DNA of 64,000 nucleotides from Mycoavidus cysteinexigens (GTDB lineage Bacteria; Pseudomonadota; Gammaproteobacteria; Burkholderiales; Burkholderiaceae): the NCBI GenBank assembly GCA_031963445.1, contig JASSUH010000002.1, positions 78,772 through 142,771 on the forward strand. The letters are read 5' to 3'. Positions 50,606-63,789 of this stretch are shown one piece after another. Each line of letters begins with the position of its first letter. Positions within the stretch are counted from its first letter, which is position 1. The translations under genes were made by a program, and so were the position numbers. The notes beneath the pieces are model-generated. The model worked only from the letters and a program-made list of their open reading frames with translations, was not told where the DNA came from and did no database searches.

Positions 50606-52012
50606 ATGAACTGTAACGAAATACTTAAGCATGGCGTCTTCAATACTGTTATCAAAGATAATGCAAGGTCACTTTCCGATAATTATACGGAATGGCTCAA
50701 AACAGCTACCTTCCAAGAAATTCAGCAAGCCCGATCAGCTGGTCTGTCGGTTGCTCTTCCAATTAAGGGGATACCTCTCGATTTCTCTGCGAACTTCACA
50801 CAAGATGAGCTTAATAGATGGCGCCAGGAAGTTGACTCCGGCAACGTCAGGCAGTTAACCCAAAATGAGATGGAAACTATTGTTGAGAGAAGTGTTGACG
50901 AGAAAATCGTCAAAGCTTGGAAAGAGTGTATACGCTCACAGACATTCGGCGTTTTAAGCTATGAGACAGATAATGAGGACGGCTCATTTTCAGTCCTTTT
51001 TCGATATTCGCCGAATGCTGTTGGTGATATGCCTCCTACAGTTACAGATTTCAGGACTATAGCAGCAACCTGCCAAAATCCCCCGGCTGTGGGTTCGGAG
51101 TTGCCATATGGAGGGTTAATTAGTTTGTTTACAAGAGGGGAGGATCGGGACGGGAATTATCCTACTGCCACCTACGCCATGAATACAACCAAAGGAGCTA
51201 CCACAGGAACGATACCACCAATTATTAAGCAGACACCACCTAAACAACCTGTGATTCGCGCAATTAGAGTTTTTTCAGCTTTAGGTACTACAGCAGCACA
51301 CCCGACCGCTGAAGTTTCCGTGCCACAAGGTTACAAAATGATCGGCGGTGGCGCGAAAGTCAATTGGAGTGGAGCAGGAAGTTTACTGACCGCTTCCTAC
51401 CCTAAGGCCTTCAACATTTGGGTAGCAAGTAGCAAAGATCACAGTATCCCCTCGCCCGCGACTATCGAGGTTTGGGCAATCGCAATAGAGGATCCAAAAG
51501 ATGATTTCGAAGTTGTCATAGACTCATCAGATTCGCCAAGAATGCCCCACCCAGAAGTATTAGTTAATGCTCGCAGTGGGTATCAACTTGTAGGCGGAGG
51601 TGCACAAGCACACGGGCGCCCTGCGGCGGGTCAACTTCTTACGGCTAGTCACCCCATTGGGACAAATACTTGGCATGCTAAAAGTAAAGATCATGTGCAC
51701 CCTGATCCTAGCGTTTTAACTGCATATGCAATTTCCATGCGCCCTAGAAATGGAACAGATCTGATTCCGATTCAAATCAATTCGCGCACGGGAAGCACTA
51801 CCGCCCATCCAAAAGGAGAATGTGAAGCGCCCGCCGGATGCAAGTTGATAGGCGGGGGGGCTTTAGTAAATTGGGCTGGTGCCGGGAGCTTACTTACCGC
51901 AAGCCATCCGAGGGGTAACGAATGGGTCACGGCATCAAAAGATCATCAAGTGCCAGATCCATCAAGTATCACGACTTTCACAATGGGTATTGATTTAAGG
52001 CATTTTGCCTGA
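50606..52012 (+). CDS. Unknown protein: ~230-aa N-terminal domain + three ~80-aa beta-rich repeats (GGGA...LLTAS.P...W.A.SKDH..PDP)
   Basis: TAAGGAG lies upstream of the ATG at 50606. Three internal repeats are visible in the translation. Confidence 0.7.
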   Translation: MNCNEILKHGVFNTVIKDNARSLSDNYTEWLKTATFQEIQQARSAGLSVALPIKGIPLDFSANFTQDELNRWRQEVDSGNVRQLTQNEMETIVERSVDEKIVKAWKECIRSQTFGVLSYETDNEDGSFSVLFRYSPNAVGDMPPTVTDFRTIAATCQNPPAVGSELPYGGLISLFTRGEDRDGNYPTATYAMNTTKGATTGTIPPIIKQTPPKQPVIRAIRVFSALGTTAAHPTAEVSVPQGYKMIGGGAKVNWSGAGSLLTASYPKAFNIWVASSKDHSIPSPATIEVWAIAIEDPKDDFEVVIDSSDSPRMPHPEVLVNARSGYQLVGGGAQAHGRPAAGQLLTASHPIGTNTWHAKSKDHVHPDPSVLTAYAISMRPRNGTDLIPIQINSRTGSTTAHPKGECEAPAGCKLIGGGALVNWAGAGSLLTASHPRGNEWVTASKDHQVPDPSSITTFTMGIDLRHFA

Positions 52013-52813
52013 AAGTTTCAGTAATTTACTTCTTAAAGTGGTCCTGGCCCAGATCTAGAGCTATTCCATCTTCTTTGGGCAGGACCATCTCAACTGTGGC
52101 AGGTCTAAAAAGTCGTCAGCATTAGTTCTCACTTAAGTTGGAAACAGAGATTAAGAAGGCAGCTGTCCAGCTTGTTAAATAAATATCATGAGAACTGGCT
52201 AATTTATTATTTTACATAATCTTAATAATCGCACTTTTTTGAAGATGGTGATAATTAGAAGAATTTAGAAATAATTAGCCTATTTTTAACGATATTTTAT
52301 CTTGCAGCTCGATGCAGGACAAAGCCATTGTTTAGATTGATCAAGTTTTTGGCAAATAGCCTTTATGCAATCCTTTGGGATACCAATACTCTTTCAAGAG
52401 CTTTAATAATATGGCTAAGTAGATATTCATTTTTACCTAATGCAGCAACAAATATCTCGCTGAAGTAAAAAAACATGCATTAAGTTATAGATCAGCGCTT
52501 TCGTTACGGTGTTAGTCGCGTTGTTTGCATTGTGCAGTAGTCCAGCGGCCGGCTTCATATTTGAGAACAACTGCGGTCCAAGGCAATCTTGCGCTTTCAG
52601 TGGCCAGACTCCTGCGCAACAACCGATTACTGCTAAGTATCTATAAATGGGATTTTCAGCGTGCCATGCCAATCTTATTCGCACAGCTACTCTTGGTCAT
52701 AGAGCGGTGGTGCTTAGCCAACCGACTCCGATTCGACGTCGTTAGCTCTTCGGGGAGATTCTGCCAGGGTAGCCCTGCTGACAACATTAGCAAAATCGAT
52801 AAAAGTATTATAA

Positions 52814-53380
52814 GCAGCGGCACCTTTCATACATGACGACATGTGTTGGGCGTCCGGATTACTGCTCGAAAAAGGGCGACACTATCGCATCACCATCACC
52901 ACACCGGGCGATTGGTTCGATCGGACCATCCATACTGATGTAGCGGGATTTCATGCTGATAATTTCTGGTATGTCGTAGCAACACCATTGAAGCATTGGT
53001 GGAGAGAAAATTGGTTTAAACCAATTGCTCGAATCGGTGTGATGGGCAACGATGAATATGTCCTAAATCCAACTGATGAGTTTGAGAAATATAGCTATCC
53101 TCCCTGCCCTACGGGAACCGAATAAGTAAAGAACAACCACGTTCGCGACAAGATTAGAAGTGACTTCGCCCAACAGTGCATGGCCCTTACCCCAACCCCC
53201 GACAACTACAAGGTTCTGGTTAGCAAGATTAAAGCACGAACTACGGGAGAATTATTTTTATATGTGAACGACGCAGTGCGGATGCTACCTGGAGCCACGA
53301 ACCTCTTCTTTAGTAATAATACTGGCCCCGTTAGGGCCATGGTCGAACCAATGTTTATATCGCCGATATCAACGAAGTGA
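52814..53380 (+). pseudogene. LecA(PA-IL)-like beta-sandwich domain gene with an in-frame TAA (53126) and a broken N-terminus
   Basis: ORFs 52841..53125 and 53180..53380 share one frame. GELFLYVNDAV...FFSNNTGPV resembles the ...LIYNDVPGTYGNNSGSF... end of LecA from memory. Confidence 0.35.
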
Positions 53381-53993
53381 GTCTCGTAGTGATACTGCTA
53401 GGCATAGCATCACAAATAGTAGCTGCCGAAAGTGCCATCTGTGAACACTGCTTTTATTCATAAGGCTTTCATCAGGTGCTTCTAAAAGGGAAGCCCAACA
53501 CTCTTGCCACTAGCTGCGGCCTGTTGAGCAGGGAGCATATTGGCTTGTTGCAGGACCTTACCATGTGATGCGCCAAGCATTGGATGCCGGTCACGTCAGT
53601 GTCACATATTTATGAGTTGATTCCATATTTCAATAATGCTCTGGCACTCCACTGCCAAACGCGATCCTAGCTCAGCGGCACAGCATATCGTGCTCGACGG
53701 TAAGCGCGTGTAAGGTACAAGCTCAGGTCGAGAGGCCCTACATCTGATGAATGCGCTTGCGGGGGGCAGACGTTTAGTGCTAGTGATGCATCCAGTAGAA
53801 GATAAAAACAATGAGATTAGTGGACTTAGCACAATCCGATCCGCGGAGGCAACCATAACCATCAATGCTCGGGGGCGCAAAAGAAGCGTTGCAGAAAAAA
53901 TAATTCAACATAAGCAAACTATGTATTGGCACCCAATTTGCTGCTGAGTATAAAGCGACGTGGTTAAGTAGAAAACCGACAACAGGAGTTTTT

Positions 53994-55139
53994 ATGCTCG
54001 CAGATGCCGTGATAGAACTTGGTACTCGTTCAAATGCAGAGAGATTGTTTTCGTACCCGAACGAGGGTCACGAACGTCAATCCCTTGAGGAAACGATTGA
54101 ACATTACTTGACAGATAGCCTTCAAAGAGAAGGTATCAGTGAATTTCAAGTAATGGCAGTGCCCGACACAGAACGATACACGATCCGTATAACTCTTGTG
54201 GATCCTACAGTATTAAGTGAAATTGCAGTCCGATATCAGGCTTTCTTTAATATTGGGAAAATTGGATTGCAGGAGTCTGACAGCTTCCAGAGCAAAGGAA
54301 AGTGGGGGGAAGCATGGAAATTTCTTCTCCCTCTCGGTGTTCCGATTACATTTGCCAAGGCTGTAGAAATAATGGACTTTCCGCCACTCACCCTAATCAA
54401 TAAGCAAGATTATCTGAATTCGAAGACTACTAGCCGTTGGTGGGAATTGTTAGCTTTGAATGACGTTGTTGATGCGGAAAAGGCCCGCTATAGCTGTATT
54501 CTTGATATCGTACCCGTAGCGGCCCCTGCAAATGATGGTGAAAACCTAACGCTGTCTGGAATTTATGACGGGCCTTTTGATAATTATGGTCTGTCACTTC
54601 TTGAGCTCCTTGCAAGCACGCAAACTCTTGGTATACAAAGACCATTGGTCGCGCTTGGCAGGCCAATCCGAGAATGGATGAAGCGTATCTGGAATCTGTC
54701 GCTAAATATTTGCGAAACAGGCATTATGTTGTTACGGAATGGCCACTCCTGTTCTGTTATCGCATCCAATCACCCGGCCTTCTTTTATTATGCTGTTCAC
54801 ACATACACAGACACGTCCGACGCAGTTATAAAGAATCTGGCTGTCGGCTTAGCCGTGATGAAACAGGACATAGTTGTTGCAGCCTGGCATGCTCAAATGG
54901 GACGAAGTCCAAATTCTGATCCCGCTGCTGCTTTACAGGCCAGTACCCTGAAATGGAGGAACAGAGATCCAGAATTGCTTGAAATCGTGAAGGAGCAAGC
55001 CGGCATTGTCATTCCGCGCGAGTTCATGATTCGCCATCTTGCCGAGATACAAGAGCAAGCGCCTGATTCCGATCAATTGCTTGAACTTGAGCGGCGCTTC
55101 TATGCCGAGGGTAAGCCAGAGTATGGTCCGAATAGCTGA
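53994..55139 (+). CDS. Hypothetical protein (381 aa), no recognised motif; first gene of the oxygenase cluster
   Basis: AGGAG Shine-Dalgarno sequence. Long ORF. Confidence 0.6.
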   Translation: MLADAVIELGTRSNAERLFSYPNEGHERQSLEETIEHYLTDSLQREGISEFQVMAVPDTERYTIRITLVDPTVLSEIAVRYQAFFNIGKIGLQESDSFQSKGKWGEAWKFLLPLGVPITFAKAVEIMDFPPLTLINKQDYLNSKTTSRWWELLALNDVVDAEKARYSCILDIVPVAAPANDGENLTLSGIYDGPFDNYGLSLLELLASTQTLGIQRPLVALGRPIREWMKRIWNLSLNICETGIMLLRNGHSCSVIASNHPAFFYYAVHTYTDTSDAVIKNLAVGLAVMKQDIVVAAWHAQMGRSPNSDPAAALQASTLKWRNRDPELLEIVKEQAGIVIPREFMIRHLAEIQEQAPDSDQLLELERRFYAEGKPEYGPNS

Positions 55140-55378
55140 TAGTTTGGCCAGTAGCTATCGATTTTTGAGATATTGAAAAACAGGAATAACACATCGTCCA
55201 ACATTACTAATCGCTTTCACACCAGCGTCTCTCATTTTTTATGAGTCATTCTTGCATTCGCCAGGTGATTTATTGATTTGGTCTGGCCATTTTGTAAAAA
55301 GCCATCTATCCAAAAATATGGCGCTGAGGCTAAAGTTGTCGCGAGAATTAGTAGTGTGGTGCAACTGGAAGCATATCT

Positions 55379-56125
55379 ATGCCTGATCGATTTGAGCGTT
55401 ACGAAAGAATATATAACGTATTTTATCGCATTGAGCGGTGCGGTGCCATCTCCCTAAGTGACGGCGGCGGCCCATTTGGCTTCGATATTTTGGTCGCGCT
55501 TCTATTTGACGATTTAATCGCCGCATACAAGCCTGATGGGATCATCGAGTGCGGAAGTTTCGTTGGAGACACGACAACTTACCTTGCGGAAGTATATTCT
55601 ACCTATGCCATCAAATCTTGTGACGTGGATTCGTTCTCCGTTAGCGTTACAAGGCATAGGACTAAAGCCTTTCCTAACGTGCAGGTAAATCTTGAAAGCT
55701 CGACCGACTTAGTTGCAAGAGTTGATTCCGCGTATACAAGGCCTTTATATTTCTTGGATGCTCATGGGGTCGCCAACTGGCCGCTCACAAACGAACTCGA
55801 GTCTATGACACACGGACTGGCTGTTGTTCACGACTTCGATATAGAACATCCTCGTTTCTCATTTGACCACTATGATGGCATCTCATGCGACGCAAAACTC
55901 CTCTCTCAAGTGTTTTCTCCGGGAATGCCGTTTTTTACACTGAACGCGCATGCCAACTCTCCATTTCCCTGCCTTCAAGTTGGACGACGCTCTGGCGTAG
56001 CTGTTCTTCCTTTAGACAAAGTTGCTGAGTCAGCTTGTATCCAGGTAATGAAGAATTCAAGGTGCCCTTTGGTCCAAGCAGTAATTCCTCGGGTCCATAA
56101 TGCAATTATGGAACGACAATCATGA
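55379..56125 (+). CDS. Class I SAM-methyltransferase-fold protein (Methyltransf_24/CmcI-like)
   Basis: GIIECGSFVGDTT (motif I-like), acidic end of beta-2 (IKSCDVD), and LYFLDAHG. Confidence 0.5.
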   Translation: MPDRFERYERIYNVFYRIERCGAISLSDGGGPFGFDILVALLFDDLIAAYKPDGIIECGSFVGDTTTYLAEVYSTYAIKSCDVDSFSVSVTRHRTKAFPNVQVNLESSTDLVARVDSAYTRPLYFLDAHGVANWPLTNELESMTHGLAVVHDFDIEHPRFSFDHYDGISCDAKLLSQVFSPGMPFFTLNAHANSPFPCLQVGRRSGVAVLPLDKVAESACIQVMKNSRCPLVQAVIPRVHNAIMERQS

Positions 56126-56874
56126 GCGCAGCTAAGATACGCGCTAACGTCGGGGGCATCCCATTTATAGACCCGACTTTTCAGCATCAGAGATTGCTGG
56201 CAGCAGTCGCCAGTACTCGAGTTTACAGATCTAACGCACTAGATATTACACCTCCCTTCTATGACCCAAAAATTGGACCTCAACAAACCCTGACCCCAAG
56301 CTATGCGAGAGCACTTTACAAGTGTGATGCTAATGAGCTTGGACTGAACTGGGCACCTCTGTCACCTTCGGAAATGAAGAAGATCGAGCAAGCAAAAAAT
56401 ACAATAGTAATTACCCGTCCTGCATGGTGGGCACTTATGTCACTGCCAATTAACTTCCTAAAGCTTATGGGTTCCAACCAGGGCATAAGTGCATCAATTG
56501 ACGCATTACCGCAGCACGTCTTCCTTTCCGAGGATGCTTTTAGGAGCGAAAAGGAGTTGTGCGAGCAGGTATTGCATGAGACTTGCCACAATTGGTTGTA
56601 CTTGATATCAGAAGTTTGGAAGCTCCACTGGACCAGAAGTAAAGTGATCGTTACCCTACCTTCAGGCACCCCTAGTAGAACGCCGAGCGAGTTATTGGGA
56701 GCGTTGCACGTCGTTTCCGTTCTCTTAGACTACTACGGTATATTTCGCTTAAACAACGATCTGAGTGAGCGTAATCTTCTCGGCTATCGGGATGGGTGTA
56801 GGGAATTGATCTCAGCCGTTGAAGGCTGTTTTACCGAAGCTGGCATCGAAGTTGCTTGTTCATTGATGAGATGA
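56122..56874 (+). CDS. HExxH-motif protein (candidate aKG-HExxH-type peptide hydroxylase or metalloprotein)
   Basis: VLHETCHNWLY motif. ~250 aa. ATGA overlap with the upstream gene. Confidence 0.45.
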   Translation: MSAAKIRANVGGIPFIDPTFQHQRLLAAVASTRVYRSNALDITPPFYDPKIGPQQTLTPSYARALYKCDANELGLNWAPLSPSEMKKIEQAKNTIVITRPAWWALMSLPINFLKLMGSNQGISASIDALPQHVFLSEDAFRSEKELCEQVLHETCHNWLYLISEVWKLHWTRSKVIVTLPSGTPSRTPSELLGALHVVSVLLDYYGIFRLNNDLSERNLLGYRDGCRELISAVEGCFTEAGIEVACSLMR

Positions 56875-57512
56875 GGATGCTAAGTATGTTCTTGGAGCAA
56901 TCACAATATGAGTGCCAAGTACTTTGGCCTACCCCTATTTATCTGAAGGATTTGCACAATGCGCAAGCTATAAATAAATCCTTAAAAGTGCTTATCAGTA
57001 ACTCAGATGATGGAGGAAAGGAGAAAACTACCGGTCTATTTAGAGGAAGGAAATCTGACTTTGGTTTGTTGCGCTATAACTGCGAAGCAGTCTCCACCTT
57101 AAAAGAGGCGATTTTCTCTGCAGTCGATATGCTAAATCGATGGGCAGTAGGAGATCATGCTGAAGATCTATCGGACTCCCTAATTGCTGAGGCGTGGTCT
57201 GTCGAGTACGGTAGCCCCGGATATCATCGACTGCATGTTCATCATGGGTCGTGTTGGTCGGGTGTGTACTATGTTTCTGTTGGATCTGTGGAACCTGGAA
57301 CTGGTGAGGTGCATCTTATTGATCCGCGAATAGGTGCCGCCGCGCAAGGTGTTTCGCCAGACAAAATAGCGCTACCGATTGTCCCCCGAGATGGCCTTTT
57401 GATCGCCTTCCCAAGTTGGCTATCTCATTGGGTTACGCCAGTTGAGTGTACTACACCGCGAATTTGTATCGCCTTCAATATCGGCTTTTCCAATTTGAAT
57501 GAGGCCTTTTAA
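56871..57512 (+). CDS. 2OG-Fe(II) oxygenase, TIGR02466/2OG-FeII_Oxy_5-like
   Basis: HRLHVHHGSCWSGVYYV...GEVHLIDPR...DGLLIAFPSWLSHWVTP...RICIAFNI. The ATG at 56871 overlaps the upstream stop (ATGA). Confidence 0.7.
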   Translation: MRMLSMFLEQSQYECQVLWPTPIYLKDLHNAQAINKSLKVLISNSDDGGKEKTTGLFRGRKSDFGLLRYNCEAVSTLKEAIFSAVDMLNRWAVGDHAEDLSDSLIAEAWSVEYGSPGYHRLHVHHGSCWSGVYYVSVGSVEPGTGEVHLIDPRIGAAAQGVSPDKIALPIVPRDGLLIAFPSWLSHWVTPVECTTPRICIAFNIGFSNLNEAF

Positions 57513-57514
57513 TT

Positions 57515-58015
57515 ATGATTAGCGAGCTCTGGACAACTACCGTTTGGAACGGCAGGCTCTCTAAATTTGAGGTCGTGCCGAACATTAGGTGGTCTGCAAT
57601 TTCTCACAACGGATTTGGAACCCGAAGCTCAGTCCATGACGAGATCGAGGATCGCTTGTGCGATGTGCTTCGACAGAAGGTCGGATGTGGCGGCAGTGGG
57701 CTTGTCTCTAGCACCTTTGAGATATTGAAAAAGGCTGATTTTCGCGGTCCCCGATGTACTGGAGGAAAGTGGGCTCACGTCTGGGCTGGAGCACTGACAG
57801 ATAACACAACCACCTCATGTGATGGGCACGTGGCGCTACATGATCCGAGAGCTGGGGCAGCGCTAGTAACAATGCCAGGAATGCCGTGGGCGAAAGGACA
57901 ATCATTTTTGTTAGTGGATGGCCTGTCACTTCTAATACCGGGTTGGCTGAGTTGGTCTGTCCCTATAGTACGTGGACAGCAGGAGTATATTCTAGCCTGC
58001 GTTACTCTGAGTTAG
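57515..58015 (+). CDS. Degenerate paralog of the TIGR02466-like oxygenase (metal ligands apparently lost)
   Basis: HVWAGAL...VALHDPRAGA...DGLSLLIPGWLSWSVP parallels the neighbour, but the H.H and the distal H are replaced. Confidence 0.5.
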   Translation: MISELWTTTVWNGRLSKFEVVPNIRWSAISHNGFGTRSSVHDEIEDRLCDVLRQKVGCGGSGLVSSTFEILKKADFRGPRCTGGKWAHVWAGALTDNTTTSCDGHVALHDPRAGAALVTMPGMPWAKGQSFLLVDGLSLLIPGWLSWSVPIVRGQQEYILACVTLS

Positions 58016-58072
58016 GGAGCAAAGGCATATGTTTAGTTTCTGAAAACAGCAGTGATGACGAAGGAGTGAGAA

Positions 58073-58387
58073 ATGAAAGATAAATGTGACATTACGAGAT
58101 TCACCACGCCAGAGGAACGCAATAATACATTAGGGGTAGAACTCGAGAAAGCGGATATTGAACATTTTACGGAACTTCTTCGAAAAGGTCTAGTCGAAGC
58201 TGCAGCCGAACACGTTCACGCGGTTCAGAATAACTTTGCGCTTCGAGCTGAAATGAGCGTTCGATTGAGCAGGCCGGTACGTAATGAACAAGGCGAGGTT
58301 ACGGAGCTTGTCGGACGAAATTTGCTTGAGGGGGTGATCCGGGCTCGAAAGATTTATATTGATCCCGACAAAGCTCCAGTTGAGTGA
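58073..58387 (+). CDS. Small hypothetical protein (104 aa) within the oxygenase cluster
   Basis: AAGGAG Shine-Dalgarno sequence. Confidence 0.55.
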   Translation: MKDKCDITRFTTPEERNNTLGVELEKADIEHFTELLRKGLVEAAAEHVHAVQNNFALRAEMSVRLSRPVRNEQGEVTELVGRNLLEGVIRARKIYIDPDKAPVE

Positions 58388-58553
58388 TTGCGGAAATGCC
58401 AGCAATCTAAGTATTTCATTTAAATACAGACTGGTGAATTGCGCCAGCCTGTATTTGTATAGTGTGCACTTTCATTTGCTATGTGACGCAAATAACTATA
58501 TGAAGCTGTAGTGAGATTTTAGTTTGCAGTGTTTGGAGAAGGTGGAGACTGAC

Positions 58554-59846
58554 ATGCGACTGTTGGCGTTGAGTGATTTAACCGACAAAGGAGAAGAATT
58601 TCTTACTGAGCCACCGCGCGTGCCTCGGGTATGGACTCCGAAGAACCAGTATATACGCAGAATATTTAGCCTGAAGGAGCTCGACGAGCTAATCATAGTG
58701 GGTGGGCTCAACGCAAAAGCTCTTACGATTGCGAATTTTAGTCGACGGGCACCTGAGTCGCAATTTACAATGCACCGTCATGGCGTTGAGCCAGCAGTTG
58801 AAAGCCTTTGTGATCCGCTCGCAATTGCGCAATTTCTTCAGCAGGGCTACTCTTTGCACCTTTCAAACGTGCAAAGATATTGTAAGGCGATTCTTGCATT
58901 TACTGACAGACTTTCGTTTGAGTTAGGCGCACCGGTAAAAGCTGATATCTTCATGACTCCGCCCGGAGCACAGGCATTTGCGGAGCACTACGACATTAAC
59001 GATAATTTCATCTGTCAGGTAACAGGGACAAAGGTATGGAGACTGTACACGCCATCGTTTGTTGACCCTCTCCCCCGTCATCCATGGCAGTGGGCGCATA
59101 TTACAGAAGAAATTCGTGAACGAGTTACCAATAGCCCCCCTGATATCGAGGTAGTTCTTCGGCCGGGGTCGGTGCTTTGGATACCTCGCGGTTGGATTCA
59201 TGCTGGCACAGCCACGGACGATACATCTCTGCATATAACGTTACGCCCTGAGCCAATCTCACTGGAATGGGTTTCTCAAAGAATGGTCGAGAGCCTCTCG
59301 GACATGAAACGAAATCTGCGCCGAAGTGTGGCTTATCGGTCACTTTTCACGCCACAAGCGGCCACAGACACACTCATCGACACCATTAAGTGCCTCAGTA
59401 GTTTACTGTCGGACGTCGACGTTAAAGCTAGCGGCTTAGATCTTTGGCGTTCCCATGGAAATCTATTCGACGGGCCTGTACTCAGGCCCGTGGCAGATGT
59501 CTGCGTAGATGAAGAAGCGGATCCAACGGTCCTTTGGGCACGTCCCGAGGGAGCAGTAGGCTACTGGCGAGCAAATGACACATTGCATCTGCACCTTGGC
59601 ACGGCTCGCAAAATTCTCACTGGTAAAAAAGCCGACTTTGTCGAGTGGCTGCTAAACGCAGGAGACCACACACGAGTAGACCACGTCGTCAAGAACTTCG
59701 CTCCTGGTATTGATTGGGTCGAATTTGTACGAGAGCTCAAAGCAATAGGTTTAATCGTGCGAGGCTCTGATCTTCCGAGTCACTGGCTTTCGGAGCCTTC
59801 TGGCTGTCAAGCCAAAGTTCAAATGTCGCATTACCAGGTCGGGTAG
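58554..59846 (+). CDS. JmjC/cupin-4 2OG-dependent oxygenase (ribosomal-oxygenase/YcfD-like fold)
   Basis: FAEHYDINDNFICQVTGTKVWRLY (HxD) and VLWIPRGWIHAGTA (distal His). The ATG at 58554 follows GGAGA. Confidence 0.7.
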   Translation: MRLLALSDLTDKGEEFLTEPPRVPRVWTPKNQYIRRIFSLKELDELIIVGGLNAKALTIANFSRRAPESQFTMHRHGVEPAVESLCDPLAIAQFLQQGYSLHLSNVQRYCKAILAFTDRLSFELGAPVKADIFMTPPGAQAFAEHYDINDNFICQVTGTKVWRLYTPSFVDPLPRHPWQWAHITEEIRERVTNSPPDIEVVLRPGSVLWIPRGWIHAGTATDDTSLHITLRPEPISLEWVSQRMVESLSDMKRNLRRSVAYRSLFTPQAATDTLIDTIKCLSSLLSDVDVKASGLDLWRSHGNLFDGPVLRPVADVCVDEEADPTVLWARPEGAVGYWRANDTLHLHLGTARKILTGKKADFVEWLLNAGDHTRVDHVVKNFAPGIDWVEFVRELKAIGLIVRGSDLPSHWLSEPSGCQAKVQMSHYQVG

Positions 59847-59876
59847 CCGAAACGCATTATTGTGCTTCGGCTACCC
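59841..59876. terminator. Stem-loop between convergent genes
   Basis: GGGTAGCCGAA...TTCGGCTACCC (11-bp stem). Confidence 0.45.
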
Positions 59877-59886
59877 GACTCTTCTT

Positions 59887-60189
59887 CTAAACGTAATGTT
59901 GACCAGCGACATTGCTCTCGTTGACTGTCATTTTAGATAAAGTGCGGCTCAGACTTGCTTTTTGGCGGCCTGTTATCTCTTCTAGTTCCGCCAAAGACTG
60001 AGGATGCCTGGCATTAATGGTATGAAGTAACGCTCTATTTTCAGCGCTTAAAATTTGCGCCAAAGATTCCAGACTATCAAACCAAACTTTAGGTGCATCA
60101 GGTTCCGGCTTAATTTCTCCTTTAGCGATAGCAACTGTATAGCGCTGAAACTCGTCACGGCGCATAATGCCTAACTTTAGTGTTTTCAT
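59887..60189 (-). CDS. HTH DNA-binding antitoxin-like regulator (MarR/HVO_A0114-like)
   Basis: MKTLKLGIM...EF..YT.AIAKGE.KPEPD.PKVWF.SLES.AQ.LS..NR.LL..I....P.SL.ELEE.TGR.K..LSRTL..M. Confidence 0.6.
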   Translation of the reverse strand: MKTLKLGIMRRDEFQRYTVAIAKGEIKPEPDAPKVWFDSLESLAQILSAENRALLHTINARHPQSLAELEEITGRQKASLSRTLSKMTVNESNVAGQHYV

Positions 60190-60311
60190 ACCCCTTCCTC
60201 ATTGAGTATTTGATTGACTAAAGCCCAAAAATCTTCCACAAGCAGCCCTGCTGAGTCGAAATAGTAATCGCTGACTACACTACGTAGTCTTTCATAAGCC
60301 AAAAATTGCAT
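60186..60311 (-). pseudogene. 41-aa ORF overlapping (ATGA) the antitoxin-like gene; possibly a truncated toxin partner
   Basis: Translated by hand as MQFLAYERLRSVVSDYYFDSAGLLVEDFWALVNQILNEEGV. Confidence 0.25.
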
Positions 60312-60368
60312 GTTAATTATTATTAATGTACCATATTAATAATTAACATGCATCTATAAAAGGCTTAT

Positions 60369-60836
60369 ATGCACACTCTTACGCTAGAACAATTACGAGC
60401 TACTAGCGACGCTGGCGGTATTGTTGGCGTTACCCTGAAAGCCTTAGGCGAGGCCTTTTTTGTTCAGATAGATACAATAAATGGCAGAGCTGCCATGTTA
60501 GCTAAGGCGCGCAGCCATGAACCGCGAGGTTTCGGCAATCCTCTTCAAGCACTCAATCTGCTCCGTAAGCTTGGGCTTGTCGTTGGCTCATTCGATGTCG
60601 CATGCTGGAATCCCGAACAGAAGAGCACTGCCCGAACGAGGCCCGACCGTACAGAAGCACTAAAAAGAACGCACGAAGCAGCGGAGCATGATAAATGGTT
60701 CCGAGCGCAGGTAGAAGAAGCAATAAAAGAAGCCGACGATCCGAATACCAAATGGGTGATGCATGAAGATGCAGAAGCCAGCTGGGCCAAAAAACGAGCT
60801 GAATTGGTTAAGCGTATTGAAGGGGATGTGGCTTGA
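60369..60836 (+). CDS. Antitoxin-like protein (C-terminal RelB/ParD-like segment fused to an unknown N-domain)
   Basis: It overlaps the downstream RelE/ParE toxin gene (TTGA). The C-terminal charged helix is ...WFRAQVEEAIKEADDP.... Confidence 0.55.
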   Translation: MHTLTLEQLRATSDAGGIVGVTLKALGEAFFVQIDTINGRAAMLAKARSHEPRGFGNPLQALNLLRKLGLVVGSFDVACWNPEQKSTARTRPDRTEALKRTHEAAEHDKWFRAQVEEAIKEADDPNTKWVMHEDAEASWAKKRAELVKRIEGDVA

Positions 60837-61120
60837 AGTTAGTATGGCTCCCCAAAGCAATTGCGAATCGTGATGCACAACTCGACTATATCGCCCAAGA
60901 CAGCCCTAAAGCGGCCATTGAGCAAGGCGACCGAATCGAACACCAAGTAATCCAGTTAATCGACCACCCGGAAATGGGTCGGCCAGGGCGAAAACAGGGC
61001 ACTTATGAGTTAGTCATTAGCCGTACACCATTTATCTTAATCTATCGTATCAAGCAGAGACCTAAACGTATTGAGCTTATGTGCCTGTTGCACGGCGCTC
61101 AGCAATGGCCGAAAGATTGA
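60833..61120 (+). CDS. Type II toxin, RelE/ParE family
   Basis: 95 aa: W...A..D...I..YI....P.AA......I......L..HP..GR.G...GT.EL.....P....YR......I.....LHG.Q.WP. Confidence 0.8.
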   Translation: MKLVWLPKAIANRDAQLDYIAQDSPKAAIEQGDRIEHQVIQLIDHPEMGRPGRKQGTYELVISRTPFILIYRIKQRPKRIELMCLLHGAQQWPKD

Positions 61121-61219
61121 GCATGCCTCTTACTGGCCGCTGAATCAAAGACTCACCGAGCAAGCCCCAGGCGGCAGTGTGCACCGGCTTATTTTAACTG
61201 TGTAGGGCTAACCGTTTAA

Positions 61220-61459
61220 ATGAGGGACCTGATGGATGATTTCGGTTCTCCTGCCGTGTCTACTGAAGACGATATAGTTCTGGTAAAAGTAAAAGGAAAG
61301 GTCTTTAAATTTCTAGCCAGTAAGAACCAGGTGCTGGAAGGCAAGTACGAGCACAATTTTCTCTCCGCCATCTCTCGGTTTGCGGTAAATGATGTCGTTA
61401 GTACAGCAGAGGCCAATCAACAAAGGCATCCTGGCCATAAAATAGCTGTTATGAACTGA
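61220..61459 (+). CDS. Hypothetical ORF whose 3' end runs into the IS left end (probably truncated)
   Basis: The stop codon lies inside the IS terminal repeat. Confidence 0.25.
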   Translation: MRDLMDDFGSPAVSTEDDIVLVKVKGKVFKFLASKNQVLEGKYEHNFLSAISRFAVNDVVSTAEANQQRHPGHKIAVMN

Positions 61460-61503
61460 CCCCAAAAAGTTGGACATCAATCTGACTCTTGGGGTTTTTT
61501 ATT

Positions 61504-62040
61504 ATGACTAGGCATACAGAGCATTTCAAACTATTAGTGATTGAAGATTATCTAAGTAACACAGCTGGTTTTATGGCTGTTGGCAATCGGCATGGAATCG
61601 AGGCGAGCACAGTGCGTAGATGGGTAGCAGCGTATCGTGTACATGGGGAAGCTAGTGTCAAAAAAAAGCGTAGTCGCTATAGTGCACAATATAAGCTTGC
61701 TGTACTGAAGCACATGCGAAAGCACGCCCTGTCCTATCGCCAAACGGAAGCCTATTTTGATATTCGTAGTGCAGGTATTATCGGCCGTTGGGAGCGCCAG
61801 TATGATGCAGGAGGTATACAAGCGCTGTCTGATTGCCCACAAAAATGCTTGAAGAAGATGCAAGACCCTACCCATCCCCCTCACCAGCCTGAAAATGATG
61901 AAAGGCGCCCACGCGAACAATGGCTTAAAGAGTTGAATTACTTGCGTATGGAGAACGCTTATCTAAAAAAGCTCAGCGCCTTAATTCAAGCGGATCAGCA
62001 GGCAATACATCGCAACAAACGCAAATCATCCTTGAATTAA
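61504..62040 (+). CDS. IS3-family transposase OrfA (HTH)
   Basis: MTRHTEHFKL... HTH, then a leucine-zipper-like end. The slippery A AAA AAG lies at 61965-61971 in the zero frame. Confidence 0.85.
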   Translation: MTRHTEHFKLLVIEDYLSNTAGFMAVGNRHGIEASTVRRWVAAYRVHGEASVKKKRSRYSAQYKLAVLKHMRKHALSYRQTEAYFDIRSAGIIGRWERQYDAGGIQALSDCPQKCLKKMQDPTHPPHQPENDERRPREQWLKELNYLRMENAYLKKLSALIQADQQAIHRNKRKSSLN

Positions 62041-62862
62041 GGCAGCATTACCCTATAGCAGGCCTGCTTAAAATAGCAGGCTTAGCGCGTAGTACCTTTT
62101 ATTATCAACGACAAGCCTTGCAAGTAAAAGATAAATATAGTGAGCTCAAAGCTAAGATTAGTACACTGTTCGAGCAGCATCGAGGAAGATATGGTTATCG
62201 GCGCATTACGCTTACCTTGCGGCAGATGGGCTTTCAAGTCAACCATAAAACCATCCAACGTTTAATGGGGCAGTTGCAACTTAAATCGTTGGTACGAGTT
62301 AAAAAATACCGCGCTTACAAAGGTCAATTGGGACGTATTGCGCCTAACCTTTTGCAAAGACAATTTAGTGCTCAACGCCCTAACCAGAAGTGGGTAACGG
62401 ATGTCACTGAGTTCAAAGTGGCCGGCCAGAAACTGTACTTCTCACCCGTGATGGATTTATATAATGCAGAGATCATTGCTTATGAAAGTTCAACAAGTCC
62501 AGTGTTTCGCATGGTGAGCAACATGCTTAACAAAGCATTCTCGCGTTTAGATCGTGAAGATAAACCCATCTCAAGGATGGCAGTATCAAATGGCCTCCTA
62601 TCGAGAACAGCTCGCACAAAAAGAGATCACCCAAAGCATGTCCCGCAAAGGCAACTGCCTTGATAATGCAGCCATGGAGAGCTTCTTCGGCACATTAAAA
62701 TCTGAGTGCTTCTACTTGAAAAAGTTCCGAAGCATCGATGAATTGCAAGCTGAATTAGACAATTACATCCATTATTACAACCATGAGCGTATCAAACTGA
62801 AACTAAAAGGGCTGAGTCCTGTCCAATTCCGAACTCAGTACGCTCATCTATCATTATCTTAA
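61971..62862 (+). pseudogene. IS3-family transposase OrfB (DDE), interrupted near 62560-62575
   Basis: The -1 frame carries WVTDVTEF (first D). The frame then changes, and the sequence continues ...SQGWQYQM...SMSRKGNCLDNAAMESFFGTLKSE. Confidence 0.8.
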
Positions 62863-63089
62863 TATCCAACTTTTTAGGGGAAGTTCAATTATTAAAGGGA
62901 TGGGTAAAAGGTATTGCCTCTTATTCTATAGCAGGCCGCTTGCTTATCTTAAAAGCAGATTAAAGCTGGCGGCTTTTCTTATTTTTGATAAGGCTTCTTA
63001 AAAGCTGTTTTGGCAATGTTGAAAAAAGCTAGCCAAGGCAGAAAAAAGACAAGAGAGTTAGGGTATTCAGACTAATCTCAAAGGATGAT

Positions 63090-63117
63090 TTGACAATTCT
63101 TTGAATATTTGTAATAT
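63090..63117 (+). promoter_or_regulatory. Near-consensus sigma70 promoter
   Basis: TTGACA - 16 nt - TAATAT. Confidence 0.55.
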
Positions 63118-63320
63118 TCGACTTGCTGCTGAAACAACGGCAGCTTGGGTTTAGTCGCCCAAATGCTTAAGACTTGGTTTTGCTTCTATGGCGGAACCTT
63201 GTGGGGAAGCCTTCGGGCTTGCCGTTTCTTAAGTGACGGTCGACTAACCCTGCTTGGTTCCGCCACCTTTTGTTTAGTCGCAAAGGGTAGCGGGGAATAG
63301 ACCCACTTAAGGAGCAAGCC

Positions 63321-63779
63321 ATGTATCACGCTCAATCCGTCCCTGAACCCCCAAGGAATTCTTCCTTACGGGATGCTTCTTTATCCCCCGATATTTCAAG
63401 TAGTCATCATGAGTGCTCTGCAAAGAGTCATTCTATTGATGCAGAGCACTCTCGACACACTCCCGACGGCTCTCACCGAGCGCTTCTTTCTCAATCTCCC
63501 CCTTCTCGTTTTAGCCTCATCCAGGCTTGGATTAAATACGCCCTTAATTTCCAACTTTTTGGGGTCAGTTCAAAGCATTCTGCCAATGTGGGGCATTCTC
63601 GACACACTCCGTACTCATCGCACAAGCCTTCTAGGTGCTCTGCCGCTGCAACCCTACCTTGCTCTTCTGGTAAAAGATTCTCTAAATCCTCCTGCGCTCG
63701 AAGTAAGCCCTCCTCCGCCAGCTTGTTTCAAGCAAATCGGGATAGTTTTTCCGCTCCCTGTTTACTAACGCATAACTAG
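63321..63779 (+). CDS. Ser/His/Pro-rich low-complexity protein (uncertain; an overlapping frame, 63373..63768, is also open)
   Basis: AAGGAG lies 6 nt before the ATG. Internal repeat HSRHTP(D/Y).SH(R/K). Confidence 0.35.
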   Translation: MYHAQSVPEPPRNSSLRDASLSPDISSSHHECSAKSHSIDAEHSRHTPDGSHRALLSQSPPSRFSLIQAWIKYALNFQLFGVSSKHSANVGHSRHTPYSSHKPSRCSAAATLPCSSGKRFSKSSCARSKPSSASLFQANRDSFSAPCLLTHN

Positions 63780-63789
63780 GGGGAGCGCT

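What the first reader, a model, noticed from the sequence alone, without database searches (positions are those of the whole stretch)
53994..59846. Compact operon of three different oxygenase-type folds plus a methyltransferase-fold protein: candidate peptide/protein hydroxylation system
Seven co-directional genes lie here.
- An unknown 381-aa protein.
- A class I methyltransferase-fold protein.
- A 250-aa HExxH protein (HETCH).
- A TIGR02466-type 2OG-Fe(II) oxygenase with all the usual motifs.
- An adjacent paralog that appears to have lost its metal ligands.
- A 104-aa protein.
- A 440-aa JmjC/cupin-4 oxygenase with HxD...H.

Genes 2-5 are translationally coupled: ATGA overlaps at 56122 and 56871, and a 2-nt gap at 57515. 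HExxH proteins of this size have been linked to aKG-dependent beta-hydroxylation of ribosomal peptides. JmjC/cupin-4 enzymes hydroxylate proteins (ribosomal oxygenases). I know of no described system combining these four folds. The cluster is bracketed by TA modules and an IS, and it is richer in G+C than the neighbouring effector-like genes, so it looks like an independently acquired cassette. Possible substrates are the 104-aa protein, the 381-aa protein, a small upstream peptide, or a host protein.
Basis: partly seen in the sequence, partly recalled or inferred. Interest (0 to 1): 0.8.

Follow-up and report, generated by a model that had tools for sequence, protein, structure and literature searches.

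The report
Conserved oxygenase cassette modifying a small peptide
Six of the seven genes form a cassette that recurs in many bacteria, where several iron oxygenases and a methyltransferase most likely decorate the small co-encoded 104-residue protein; it looks like a peptide natural-product (RiPP-type) pathway that I could not find described.

Summary
The seven ORFs, their overlaps and their family assignments are real.

**What belongs together**
- The 381-aa gene (g1) is a neighbour. It occurs in none of more than 45 related loci.
- The conserved unit is g2-g3-g4-g5-g6:
  - g2 is a COMT-like methyltransferase.
  - g3 is an aKG-HExxH oxygenase.
  - g4 is a TIGR02466/PF13759 2OG oxygenase.
  - g5 is its ligand-less paralog.
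  - g6 is the 104-aa protein.
- This unit recurs wherever the contig is long enough, in about 45 loci with 36-71% G+C.
- The JmjC gene (g7) is an optional add-on.

**Why g6 is the likely substrate**
- It is always present and is the best-conserved protein of the cassette.
- It carries an almost invariant V/M-Q-x-N-F-A-L motif in a region modelled as flexible.
- It comes in a short form and a long form. JmjC occurs only with the long form (7 of 11 loci against 0 of 17).
- Sister loci add RiPP-type genes: YcaO/TfuA, the LanM N-terminal domain, a B12 radical-SAM enzyme, peptidases and exporters.

**Limits**
- No chemistry is shown.
- The window copy has no peptidase or exporter.
- JmjC plus HExxH is already known from biphenomycin clusters, but I found no description of this core.

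Verdict: an uncharacterised RiPP-type family, carried here near a MobF relaxase, TA modules and an IS.

The parts
55379..56125 (+). g2: 248-aa COMT-like, probably cation-dependent, class I methyltransferase. It is a core cassette gene.
   Evidence: - A family profile (A2, 24 sequences) matches catechol O-methyltransferase structures at E 3.8e-7.
- In that alignment 'FLDAHW' lies on COMT 'FLDHW' and 'HD' lies on COMT 'AD'. From my own knowledge of COMT, these positions hold its Mg2+ ligands D141 and D169.
- D127 and D152 are invariant in the family.
- More than 206 clusters of close homologs exist, mostly named 'hypothetical'.
- It is present in every related locus.
56122..56874 (+). g3: 250-aa aKG-HExxH-type oxygenase. 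The HETCH motif is at residues 152-156, window 56575-56589.
   Evidence: - TIGR04267 scores 33.5 bits, E 3.8e-8, below the cut-off of 40.
- The Nonomuraea orthologue from the same cassette scores 44.9 bits, above the cut-off.
- The family profile matches ChlH 8s5f at E 8e-4.
- The AF2 model has pLDDT 84.
- Its only significant Foldseek PDB hits are ChlH (E 4.6e-7, TM 0.57-0.63) and SjiH.
56871..57512 (+). g4: 213-aa TIGR02466/PF13759 2OG-Fe(II) oxygenase, predicted to be active.
   Evidence: - TIGR02466 scores 68.1 bits against a cut-off of 62.5.
- PF13759 gives E 6.9e-18.
- H122, H124, H186 and R197 are invariant in 14 homologs.
- The closest structures are the uncharacterised 3bvc and 2rg4.
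57515..58015 (+). g5: 166-aa paralog of g4 without metal ligands. It is proposed to be the substrate-binding partner.
   Evidence: - hhalign of g4 against g5 gives 97.6% probability, E 3e-12.
- No His is invariant in 18 homologs, while DPR and PGWL are kept.
- In Ralstonia syzygii R24 the g5 domain is fused to an MFS transporter.
58073..58387 (+). g6: 104-aa small protein, the proposed substrate (precursor), long 'type B' form.
   Evidence: - It follows g5 directly in most loci and lies within the cluster in the rest.
- Homologs are 56-75% identical over the full length, which makes it the best-conserved cassette protein.
- A strong ribosome-binding site, AAGGAG, precedes the ATG.
- The AF2 model has pLDDT 56.
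- It matches no Pfam, NCBIfam or PDB entry.
58223..58243 (+). Conserved motif V51-Q-N-N-F-A-L57 of g6, the proposed modification site.
   Evidence: - V/M-Q-x-N-F-A-L is shared by the short and long forms in nearly all loci.
- V51, Q52, N54, F55 and L57 are invariant in 15 type-B homologs.
- The motif lies mostly within segments of the model with pLDDT below 50 (residues 47-55 and 59-62).
58244..58384 (+). C-terminal extension of g6 (residues 58-104) that defines the long form. It is the proposed target or docking region of the accessory enzymes, including JmjC.
   Evidence: - The extension is present only in loci that carry accessory enzymes.
- JmjC occurs in 7 of 11 independent long-form loci and 0 of 17 short-form loci, Fisher p = 2.8e-4.
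58554..59846 (+). g7: JmjC/cupin-4 2OG oxygenase, an accessory gene. The ORF is open from TTG 58524, but the start is more likely ATG 58554.
   Evidence: - PF08007 scores 70 bits against a cut-off of 22.
- The closest structures are NO66 (E 1.8e-17), MINA53 and YxbC, with HYD...H aligned.
- The start is inferred from the alignment with four homologs and from the GGAG upstream.
53994..55139 (+). g1: 381-aa neighbour gene. It is NOT part of the cassette. It belongs to a separate family seen in conflict-system-like fusions.
   Evidence: - It is absent from all related loci.
- Its own family has 249 representative clusters.
- Members are fused to Schlafen AlbA_2, PLD nuclease, cytidine deaminase or phosphoesterase domains.
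- It has no Pfam, NCBIfam, PADLOC or PHROG match.

Best explanation
Window 55379-59846 is a six-gene RiPP-type post-translational modification cassette. The 104-aa product of g6 is the substrate. All of the steps below are inferred; none is shown.

**Proposed steps**
1. The N-terminal two-fifths of g6 (TRFTT..EER...IELD..D..F..LLRKGL) acts as a recognition or leader region.
2. The invariant V-Q-x-N-F-A-L motif and the residues after it are the modified region.
3. g3 (aKG-HExxH) and g4 (PF13759), both Fe(II)/2-oxoglutarate enzymes, oxidise side chains of this motif. Beta-hydroxylation of Gln52 and Asn54 is the most likely reaction. Oxidative backbone cleavage at Ala56, as PflC does at ARMD, is possible.
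4. g5, a catalytically dead paralog of g4, pairs with g4 and holds the peptide.
5. g2, a COMT-like metal-dependent O-methyltransferase, methylates a newly made hydroxyl. A beta-hydroxy-Asn or beta-hydroxy-Asp side chain would offer the bidentate metal chelate that this enzyme class uses.
6. g7, a JmjC oxygenase of the NO66/MINA53/YcfD type, hydroxylates a residue in the C-terminal extension that only the long form of g6 has. Conserved Arg and Lys residues there are candidates.

**Fate of the product:** in relatives the product is probably trimmed and exported, because they encode M2, M3, TldD or C39 peptidases and MFS or ABC exporters. The window copy carries none of these. It sits near a MobF relaxase, TA modules and an IS, so it is probably mobile.
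For: **Shown: conservation**
- The order g2-g3-g4-g5-g6 is conserved in about 45 loci:
  - 15 Actinomycetota genomes.
  - 45 metagenome loci, wherever the contig is long enough.
  - Low-GC and proteobacterial contigs and a Ralstonia megaplasmid.
- Host G+C ranges from 36% to 71%.

**Shown: enzyme identities**
- g3 has the aKG-HExxH fold.
- g4 passes the TIGR02466 cut-off and keeps its His and Arg residues.
- g5 is a ligand-less paralog of g4.
- g2 resembles COMT, with the residues aligned to COMT's metal site conserved.
- g7 is a JmjC protein with HxD...H.

**Shown: g6 behaves like a substrate**
- It is small, always present and the most conserved protein of the cassette.
- Its invariant motif lies in a low-confidence, probably flexible segment.
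- Its architecture co-varies with the enzyme set (Fisher p 2.8e-4).

**Shown: RiPP-type genes join the same core in sister loci**
- YcaO plus TfuA.
- DUF4135, the LanM N-terminal domain.
- Nitroreductase, a B12 radical-SAM enzyme and a second methyltransferase.
- Peptidases M2, M3 and TldD, MFS exporters, and an ORF whose N-terminus looks like a C39-peptidase ABC exporter by eye, not scanned against any library.
- A g5::MFS fusion in Ralstonia fits a peptide-binding role for g5.

**From the literature**
- Every aKG-HExxH enzyme characterised in the papers I read acts on a RiPP precursor.
  - ChlH makes beta-OH Asp and His.
  - PflC and PosC make beta-OH Gln and Asn and also cleave oxidatively at ARMD (PMC12636437).
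  - BipH works in biphenomycin biosynthesis (PMC12707348).
- JmjC enzymes that work on RiPP precursors are known: BipG (PMC12707348) and CzlI (PMC11575548).
Against: - No chemistry is shown. The sites, the order of steps and the type of oxidation are all inferred.
- The window cassette has no peptidase, exporter or immunity gene. The short-form actinobacterial loci have none either.
- g6 is conserved over its whole length at 56-75% identity, whereas typical antibiotic RiPP cores vary.
- No RRE/PqqD domain was found in any cassette protein.
- The window g3 scores below the TIGR04267 cut-off.
- The g6 model rests on a shallow alignment of 15 sequences, so its low pLDDT is weak evidence for disorder.
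- No g6 homolog was detected in the Ralstonia locus or in L047/L048.
Confidence: 0.65

Rival explanations
1. The enzymes and substrate are the same, but the product is not a secreted peptide. g6 stays an intact, modified small protein that works inside the cell, for example as a cofactor-like, metal-binding, regulatory or phage/conflict-related factor.
For: - The window cassette and the short-form loci have no peptidase or exporter. In 18 loci, mostly actinobacterial genomes, the cassette sits next to dnaE and DUF6300 rather than next to transport genes.
- g6 is conserved over its full length and is more conserved than its enzymes.
- The window copy lies among TA modules, next to g1, whose family is fused to Schlafen, PLD and deaminase effector domains.
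- In L002 the cassette lies between groups of genes that look defence-related: PLDc_2/helicase/HATPase_c_3 on one side and PAPS_reduct/DUF4007 on the other.
- Anti-phage RiPPs (lanthivirins) are a precedent (bioRxiv 10.64898/2026.08.26.747419).
Against: - Many long-form relatives do carry peptidases (M2, M3, TldD) and MFS exporters, and one carries an ORF that looks like a C39 ABC exporter, right beside the core.
- No cassette protein matches PADLOC.
- Being located in an island is weak evidence of function.
Confidence: 0.2
2. The oxygenases and the methyltransferase modify a cellular or host protein, for example a ribosomal protein as the ROX-type JmjC enzymes YcfD, NO66 and MINA53 do. In this reading g6 is an adaptor, regulator or chaperone rather than the substrate.
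For: - The closest solved relatives of g7 are ribosomal-protein hydroxylases.
Against: - The cassette is common in free-living soil Actinomycetota, so a eukaryotic host target is unlikely.
- JmjC is optional and tracks the g6 extension.
- The HExxH fold is known only from enzymes that act on co-encoded precursors (PMC12636437).
- The added YcaO/TfuA and LanM-like genes act on co-encoded peptides.
Confidence: 0.07
3. The cassette makes or tailors a small, non-ribosomal metabolite, such as a hydroxylated and O-methylated amino acid. In this reading g6 is an unrelated small protein that travels with the genes.
For: - PF13759 enzymes have no known substrate.
- COMT-like methyltransferases usually act on small molecules.
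- In L071, g2 lies next to a PF13759 fusion with no HExxH gene and no g6 called.
Against: - g6 is present in nearly every locus and is the most conserved member.
- Its architecture co-varies with the enzyme set.
- The accessory genes are peptide-modifying types.
- No NRPS, PKS, amino-acid-activating or carrier genes are conserved near the cassette.
Confidence: 0.05

Closest known systems
aKG-HExxH RiPP oxygenases (ChlH, PDB 8s5f; PflC/PosC; BpmH/BipH)
   Same: - g3 has the same fold. Its only significant PDB fold matches are ChlH and SjiH.
- It has the HExxH motif and the right size, and it is encoded beside a small candidate precursor.
- The g6 motif Q-N-N-F-A-L-R-A-E loosely recalls the PflA site (Gln run followed by ARMD), where PflC hydroxylates Gln and Asn and cuts at the Ala (PMC12636437).
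   Different: - The window g3 is below the TIGR04267 cut-off (33.5 against 40), and identity to ChlH is 17-18%.
- It is not fused to or paired with a radical-SAM enzyme or an MNIO.
- Its partners differ: a PF13759 pair and a COMT-like methyltransferase.
- The precursor family is different.
- Activity is untested.
Biphenomycin clusters (bip/bpm): JmjC BipG plus aKG-HExxH BipH
   Same: One RiPP cluster combines a JmjC hydroxylase and an aKG-HExxH hydroxylase that act on the same precursor (PMC12707348).
   Different: - The cassette has no MNIO, arginase-like or TPR protein, and no TldD gene here. A B12 radical-SAM gene appears in only one sister locus (L068).
- The precursor is unrelated (a 104-aa protein with a VQxNFAL motif).
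- The PF13759 pair and the COMT-like methyltransferase are absent from bip.
Ribosomal oxygenases (ROX: E. coli YcfD/RoxA, human NO66 and MINA53) and other JmjC peptide hydroxylases (CzlI, YxbC)
   Same: g7 matches PF08007 (JmjC_2). NO66 aligns at E 1.8e-17 with the HxD...H triad in register.
   Different: - There is no evidence for a ribosomal substrate.
- g7 is an optional member of a peptide-modifying cassette, and it tracks an extension of the co-encoded small protein.
TIGR02466 / PF13759 (2OG-FeII_Oxy_5): structures 3bvc and 2rg4, and the cyanophage '2OG-Fe(II) oxygenase' auxiliary genes (phrog_81)
   Same: g4 is a member by the curated cut-off. It matches phrog_81 at E 1.2e-26 and shares the His-x-His...His...Arg pattern.
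   Different: - The family has no assigned substrate.
- Here it is paired with a ligand-less paralog and embedded in a peptide-modifying cassette. I did not find that context described.
Cation-dependent class I O-methyltransferases (COMT, CCoAOMT, YrrM type)
   Same: - The profile matches COMT structures at E 3.8e-7 over about 110 residues.
- The match covers the region of the SAM-binding motif, and the two Asp aligned to COMT's metal ligands are conserved.
   Different: - No Pfam methyltransferase model reaches its cut-off.
- The family has its own invariant N-terminal motif (GGGPFGFD) and C-terminal motif (PCLQxGRRxG).
- The substrate is presumably a peptide-bound hydroxyl.
YcaO-TfuA thioamidated RiPP clusters and class II lanthipeptide synthetase (LanM) N-terminal domain
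   Same: Sister loci of this cassette carry YcaO plus TfuA (L046-L049, L052) or DUF4135 proteins (L002, L065, L068, L075).
   Different: - The window cassette has neither.
- The two genome-mining papers on thioamidated RiPPs do not mention 2OG, JmjC or cupin partners.

Membership tests
aKG-HExxH peptide oxygenases (TIGR04267 / IPR026337) | HExxH motif conserved | tested here: met
   HETCH is at residues 152-156. H152, E153 and H156 are invariant in 7 homologs.
aKG-HExxH peptide oxygenases (TIGR04267 / IPR026337) | Score at or above the curated TIGR04267 cut-off (40 bits) | tested here: inconclusive
   - The window g3 scores 33.5 bits, below the cut-off.
- Orthologues from the same cassette score 44.9 (P0008, above), 39.1 (P0004) and 24.5 (P0002).
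- The family straddles the threshold.
aKG-HExxH peptide oxygenases (TIGR04267 / IPR026337) | Fold of ChlH (zincin-like, PDB 8s5f) rather than a protease or another fold | tested here: met
   - The AF2 model has pLDDT 84.
- Foldseek PDB finds 8s5f at E 4.6e-7, probability 1.0, TM 0.57-0.63, and 22ob SjiH at E 7e-5. The next hit has E 0.67.
- The sequence profile matches 8s5f at E 8e-4.
aKG-HExxH peptide oxygenases (TIGR04267 / IPR026337) | Fe(II)/2-oxoglutarate-dependent oxidation of a co-encoded precursor peptide | not testable with these tools
   This needs enzyme assays. Only the genomic pairing with g6 is shown.
TIGR02466 / PF13759 2OG-Fe(II) oxygenase | Score above the curated cut-offs | tested here: met
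   g4 scores 68.1 bits on TIGR02466 (cut-off 62.5) and 65.3 bits on PF13759 (cut-off 27).
TIGR02466 / PF13759 2OG-Fe(II) oxygenase | Metal-binding His residues and the 2OG-binding Arg retained | tested here: met
   - g4: H122, H124, H186 and R197 are invariant and aligned with 3bvc.
- g5: not met. No His is invariant, so g5 is a pseudo-enzyme paralog.
JmjC_2 / ribosomal oxygenase (ROX) family | JmjC domain with an HxD...H triad | tested here: met
   PF08007 scores 70.2 bits. 'EHYD' and 'WIHAG' align with NO66.
JmjC_2 / ribosomal oxygenase (ROX) family | Substrate is a ribosomal protein | not tested
   There is no evidence either way. The co-variation with the g6 extension points to g6 instead.
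Cation-dependent class I O-methyltransferase (COMT/CCoAOMT type) | Match to a curated methyltransferase family model | tested here: not met
   Pfam gives only RMNT_CmcI at 13.6 bits (cut-off 23.2). NCBIfam gives nothing. g2 is therefore described as 'works like' this family, not filed as a member.
Cation-dependent class I O-methyltransferase (COMT/CCoAOMT type) | Rossmann SAM motif and acidic metal ligands | tested here: met
   The profile-to-COMT alignment (E 3.8e-7) puts ECGSFVGD on ELGAYCGY, FLDAHW on FLDHW, and HD on AD. D127 and D152 are invariant.
RiPP biosynthetic gene cluster | Small precursor gene next to its modifying enzymes | tested here: met
   g6 follows g5 in the window and in most related loci.
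RiPP biosynthetic gene cluster | Leader peptidase and/or exporter in the cluster | tested here: not met
   - None lies within about 10 kb in the window.
- Relatives do have them: Peptidase_M2 (L073), M3 (L003, L067, L068), TldD (L075), MFS exporters, and a C39-like ABC exporter ORF in L070 recognised by eye only.
RiPP biosynthetic gene cluster | Post-translational modification of the precursor is detected | not testable with these tools
   This needs mass spectrometry.
Biphenomycin-type cluster | MNIO, B12 radical-SAM enzyme and a bip-type precursor | tested here: not met
   The window has no MNIO or radical-SAM gene, and the precursor is unrelated.
Known anti-phage defence systems (PADLOC-DB 2.0) | Any component matches a defence-system model | tested here: not met
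   None of the seven proteins gives a hit.

The most novel reading that the evidence does not exclude
This is the founding example of an undescribed RiPP class found across several phyla. Its core is three parts working on one highly conserved precursor motif (VQxNFAL):
- an aKG-HExxH oxygenase;
- a PF13759/TIGR02466 oxygenase with a catalytically dead paralog that serves as its peptide-binding subunit;
- a COMT-like O-methyltransferase.

If so, it would give the first substrate class (peptide side chains) for PF13759. That family includes the common cyanophage '2OG-Fe(II) oxygenase' auxiliary genes of unknown function. The modified g6 may act as an intact small protein in phage or plasmid conflict rather than as a secreted antibiotic.
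Probability: 0.4. Interest if true: 0.75.

Novelty: new variant of a known kind. Interest (0 to 1): 0.62.

Why it matters
- **A testable RiPP-type family.** It is compact (five or six genes), has more than 200 clusters of close g2 homologs, and spans Actinomycetota, Proteobacteria and low-GC bacteria. Cultured carriers include Nonomuraea, Microbispora, Actinomadura, Streptomyces sp. LBL and Ralstonia syzygii R24.
- **A first functional context for PF13759/TIGR02466.** No substrate is known for this family. Relatives are widespread auxiliary genes of cyanophages, so a peptide-hydroxylase function would be a concrete hypothesis for them.
- **A natural enzyme/pseudo-enzyme pair.** g4 and g5 are paralogs, and the g5::MFS fusion points to the dead copy as the peptide-binding subunit.
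- **A modular precursor.** An added C-terminal extension of g6 co-occurs with added enzymes (JmjC, YcaO/TfuA, LanM-like). This is a useful system for studying how RiPP pathways gain steps.
- **Mobility.** Carriage near a relaxase, among TA and conflict-type genes, raises the question of what the product does for the element.

Tried and rejected
**Searches that gave nothing**
- PADLOC gave no hit for any of the seven proteins. PHROGs gave only the generic 2OG oxygenase and unknown-function families.
- The g6 profile against PDB sequences gave nothing below E 0.9. Pfam and NCBIfam gave nothing for g1, g5 or g6 or for short-form precursors.
- The PLSDB 'near' search with window 40000-64000 gave no match.

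**Operon signals**
- The promoter and terminator scan of 53300-60400 found no more sites than in shuffled sequence, so operon boundaries rest on spacing only.

**Literature**
- I searched for TIGR02466/PF13759, HExxH with JmjC, TfuA with YcaO with HExxH, the peptide motifs QDNFAL/QNNFAL/GLGLGLDP, and SjiH. None described this cassette.
- The library holds open-access papers and bioRxiv only, so a description in a subscription journal cannot be excluded.

**Other checks**
- No g6 homolog was found in the Ralstonia locus or in L047/L048, even with filters off.
- **g1 as a cassette member or substrate:** rejected, because it is not syntenic anywhere.
- **Frames of near-identical contig L001:** considered and rejected, because homologs support the window frames.
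- **Conserved extra neighbours in Actinomycetota:** I found only dnaE, DUF6300 and XRE-type regulators, with no transporter or peptidase.

Full report
**1. The observation**

The seven co-directional ORFs are present as described.
- Read directly from the sequence, g2/g3 and g3/g4 overlap by ATGA at 56122 and 56871. g4 and g5 are separated by 2 nt (TAA-TT-ATG).
- g6 has a strong AAGGAG ribosome-binding site.
- g7 more likely starts at ATG 58554 than at TTG 58524. The ATG follows a GGAG and agrees with four homologs.

| Gene | Best match | Score |
|---|---|---|
| g3 | TIGR04267 'aKG-HExxH-type peptide beta-hydroxylase' | 33.5 bits, E 3.8e-8, below cut-off 40 |
| g4 | TIGR02466; PF13759 | 68.1 bits (cut-off 62.5); 65 bits |
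| g7 | JmjC_2 PF08007 | 70 bits (cut-off 22) |
| g2 | RMNT_CmcI only | 13.6 bits, weak |
| g1, g5, g6 | nothing | - |

**2. A technical point about the sequence**

- The exact g3 protein also lies on JGI contig Ga0557493_052295 (L001), which is 99.5% identical to window 46146-64000.
- The 84 differences are not random. L001 has 1-3 extra bases about every 500 nt. It also has NNN where the window has stop-codon triplets in either orientation.
- Homologs from other samples support the window frames for g6 and g7.
- I therefore treat the window as correct and L001 as carrying assembly or polishing artefacts.

**3. Synteny defines the real unit**

Loci were gathered in five ways.
- Look-ups of g3 homologs.
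- A genome scan with the g3 profile, which gave 15 Actinomycetota genomes.
- A metagenome scan with the g2 profile, which gave 45 loci.
- Look-ups of g6 and g2 homologs.
- A plasmid search, which found the Ralstonia syzygii R24 megaplasmid.

HMMs of the window proteins were mapped onto these loci.
- g2-g3-g4-g5-g6 appears in the same order in essentially every locus long enough to show it. A few loci are rearranged.
- Host G+C runs from 36% to 71%.
- g1 occurs in none of them.
- g7 (JmjC) occurs in only some.
- The g2 family alone has more than 206 clusters of close homologs, nearly all named 'hypothetical'.

**4. The individual proteins**

*g3*
- The family alignment has invariant HExxH plus further conserved His residues and an LPSGT block.
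- Its profile matches only ChlH (8s5f) among PDB sequences, at E 8e-4.
- The AlphaFold model has pLDDT 84.
- Its only significant Foldseek hits are ChlH (E 4.6e-7, TM 0.57-0.63) and SjiH (E 7e-5). The next hit has E 0.67.
- The Nonomuraea orthologue passes the TIGR04267 cut-off at 44.9 bits.
- g3 therefore has the aKG-HExxH oxygenase fold and is not a zincin protease.

*g4*
- H122, H124, H186 and R197 are invariant.
- The closest structures are the uncharacterised 3bvc and 2rg4.
- It matches the phage family phrog_81, '2OG-Fe(II) oxygenase'.

*g5*
- It is a true paralog of g4 (hhalign 97.6%, E 3e-12).
- It has no invariant His, so it is a conserved pseudo-enzyme.
- In Ralstonia its domain is fused to an MFS transporter.

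*g2*
- The family profile matches catechol O-methyltransferases at E 3.8e-7.
- The region of the SAM-binding motif and the two Asp aligned to COMT's metal ligands are conserved.

*g7*
- NO66 and MINA53 are the nearest structures, and the HxD...H triad is aligned.

**5. g6 is the key**

All loci encode a small protein with the motif V/M-Q-x-N-F-A-L. It comes in two forms.
- **Short form.** It is about 60-70 aa and ends 8-24 residues after the motif. It occurs in Actinomycetota with no accessory enzymes.
- **Long form.** It is about 104 aa and has a conserved extension of 41-59 residues after the motif (RLSRPVR...LVGR..LEG.IRARK). The window carries this form.

Every long-form locus carries at least one accessory gene.
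- JmjC is found in 7 of 11 independent long-form loci and 0 of 17 short-form loci (Fisher p = 2.8e-4).
- Others carry YcaO plus TfuA (Pfam-confirmed), DUF4135 (the LanM N-terminal domain), nitroreductase, a B12 radical-SAM enzyme, a second methyltransferase or PhyH.
- Several also carry peptidases (M2, M3, TldD) and MFS exporters. In the Ralstonia locus I recognised a C39-type ABC exporter, ThiF and ThiS by eye only.

Other properties of g6:
- Long-form g6 proteins are 56-75% identical over their full length. They are more conserved than their enzymes.
- The AF2 model is poor (pLDDT 56), and the motif lies in a low-confidence stretch after a helix.
- The closest relative of the window cassette apart from L002 is L073/74. 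It has the same six genes followed directly by a Peptidase_M2 gene. The window lacks that gene.

**6. Mechanism**

Shown:
- the enzyme folds;
- the loss of ligands in g5;
- the synteny;
- the co-variation of g6 architecture with the enzyme content.

Inferred:
1. g6 is the substrate.
2. g3 and g4 (with g5 as binding partner) oxidise the motif. Beta-hydroxylation of Gln and Asn is favoured by analogy with PflC and PosC (PMC12636437). Oxidative cleavage at the Ala is a possibility.
3. g2 O-methylates a new hydroxyl.
4. g7 hydroxylates the extension.

The fate of the product is open. It may be trimmed and exported, or it may stay an intact intracellular protein.

**7. Context in the window**

- A MobF/TrwC relaxase lies at 43040-45868. 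It is 62% identical to relaxases of betaproteobacterial plasmids.
- Downstream lie a ParE toxin (60833-61120) and an IS3-type element (61489-62862).
- The g1 family has 249 representative clusters. Members are fused to Schlafen, PLD nuclease, cytidine deaminase and phosphoesterase domains, which is typical of conflict systems.
- The cassette is 48.1% G+C against 43.0% for the window.
- This fits cargo on a mobile element.
- In 18 loci, mostly actinobacterial genomes, the short-form cassette instead sits stably beside dnaE and DUF6300.

**8. Comparison with what is known**

- The aKG-HExxH enzymes described in the papers I read (ChlH, BpmH/BipH, PflC/PosC) all belong to RiPP pathways (PMC12636437).
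- JmjC plus HExxH in one cluster is already known from biphenomycin (PMC12707348).
- A JmjC peptide hydroxylase is known from curacozole (PMC11575548).
- I did not find the core described here: HExxH, the PF13759 enzyme/pseudo-enzyme pair, the COMT-like methyltransferase and the VQxNFAL precursor.
- That search covers only the open-access and bioRxiv library.

**9. Verdict**

- The most likely identity is an uncharacterised RiPP-type family, which is a new variant of a known kind.
- Interest is moderate to high, for three reasons:
  - the family is widespread and compact;
  - it offers the first functional context for PF13759;
  - it shows a clear modular link between precursor architecture and enzyme content.
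- No chemistry has been demonstrated.

Noticed in passing
window 46146-64000 versus L001 (JGI Ga0557493_052295): The two sequences are 99.5% identical, but the differences are regular. L001 has 1-3 extra bases about every 500 nt. It also has NNN where the window has stop-codon triplets (TGA, TAA, CTA, TCA) and single inserted Ns. This looks like a polishing or frameshift-correction artefact in the public contig. It changes the gene calls there: 374, 208, 167 and 388 aa, with g6 not called.
   Followed up: partly
window 53994-55139 (g1): The 381-aa protein belongs to its own family of 249 representative clusters. In other genomes members are fused to Schlafen AlbA_2, PLD-like nuclease, cytidine deaminase or phosphoesterase domains. 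That pattern suggests a sensor or regulatory domain of conflict (defence) systems. It has no match in Pfam, NCBIfam, PADLOC or PHROGs.
   Followed up: partly
L070 = Ralstonia syzygii R24 megaplasmid NZ_CP115945.1, 847054-865662: - This is a variant cassette in a cultured plant pathogen: g3, g4, a g5 domain fused to an MFS transporter (643 aa), a 332-aa protein, g2 and a 400-aa protein.
- ORFs that look like ThiF/MoeB, a ThiS-like protein ending in GG, and a C39-peptidase ABC exporter follow. I recognised these by eye and did not scan them.
- No g6-like ORF was found.
- The region has no gene annotation in PLSDB.
   Followed up: partly
L071 (ENA ERZ1758400, HuN_forest_Scaff5718412), locus 6552-10400: A close g2 homolog (52% identity) sits next to a 601-aa TPR::PF13759 fusion, a 2OG-FeII_Oxy_3 protein and a TPR protein, between TonB-dependent receptor genes. 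There is no HExxH gene. This suggests that the g2-PF13759 partnership also exists outside the cassette.
   Followed up: no
L004-L018, L026, L029, L035, L043, L044, L048, L065, L075 (mostly actinobacterial genomes): In 18 loci the cassette lies directly beside dnaE (DNA polymerase III alpha) and a DUF6300 gene, often with an XRE/HTH_31 regulator of about 400 aa nearby. This fixed chromosomal position contrasts with the mobile context in the window.
   Followed up: partly
L002 (Logan SRR31724217_15149), locus 219-5419 and 14305-19663: The closest full-length relative of the window cassette lies between two gene groups. One is PLDc_2, a DEAD/SNF2 helicase and HATPase_c_3. The other is PAPS_reduct, an 1186-aa protein and DUF4007, which by recollection resembles an Ssp phosphorothioation module. 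The region looks like a defence island. A DUF4135 gene lies just upstream of the cassette on the other strand.
   Followed up: no
window 14515-16036 (inside the 1356-aa ORF at 14203-18273, minus strand): A tandem array with a 129-nt period (43 aa per unit, about 81-83% identity between copies) lies inside a very large ORF. A second internal repeat lies at 21858-23176 inside the 942-aa ORF at 21620-24448.
   Followed up: no
window 50585-52012: A 475-aa protein with no Pfam match contains three internal repeats of about 90 aa (…GGGA.VNW.GAGSLLTAS.P…W.A.SKDH..P.P…).
   Followed up: no
window 61489-62862: An IS3-family element. orfA (HTH_28/HTH_Tnp_1) is followed by an integrase-core (rve) reading frame that is split over two ORFs (62118-62663 and 62554-62862). 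The split could be programmed frameshifting or decay.
   Followed up: no
PDB entry 22ob (SjiH-Ni, released 2026-02-11): This is the second solved structure with the aKG-HExxH fold, found as a fold match to g3 (E 7e-5, rmsd 3.4 Å over 195 columns). No paper on it was found in the library, and it is not detectable from g3 by sequence.
   Followed up: partly
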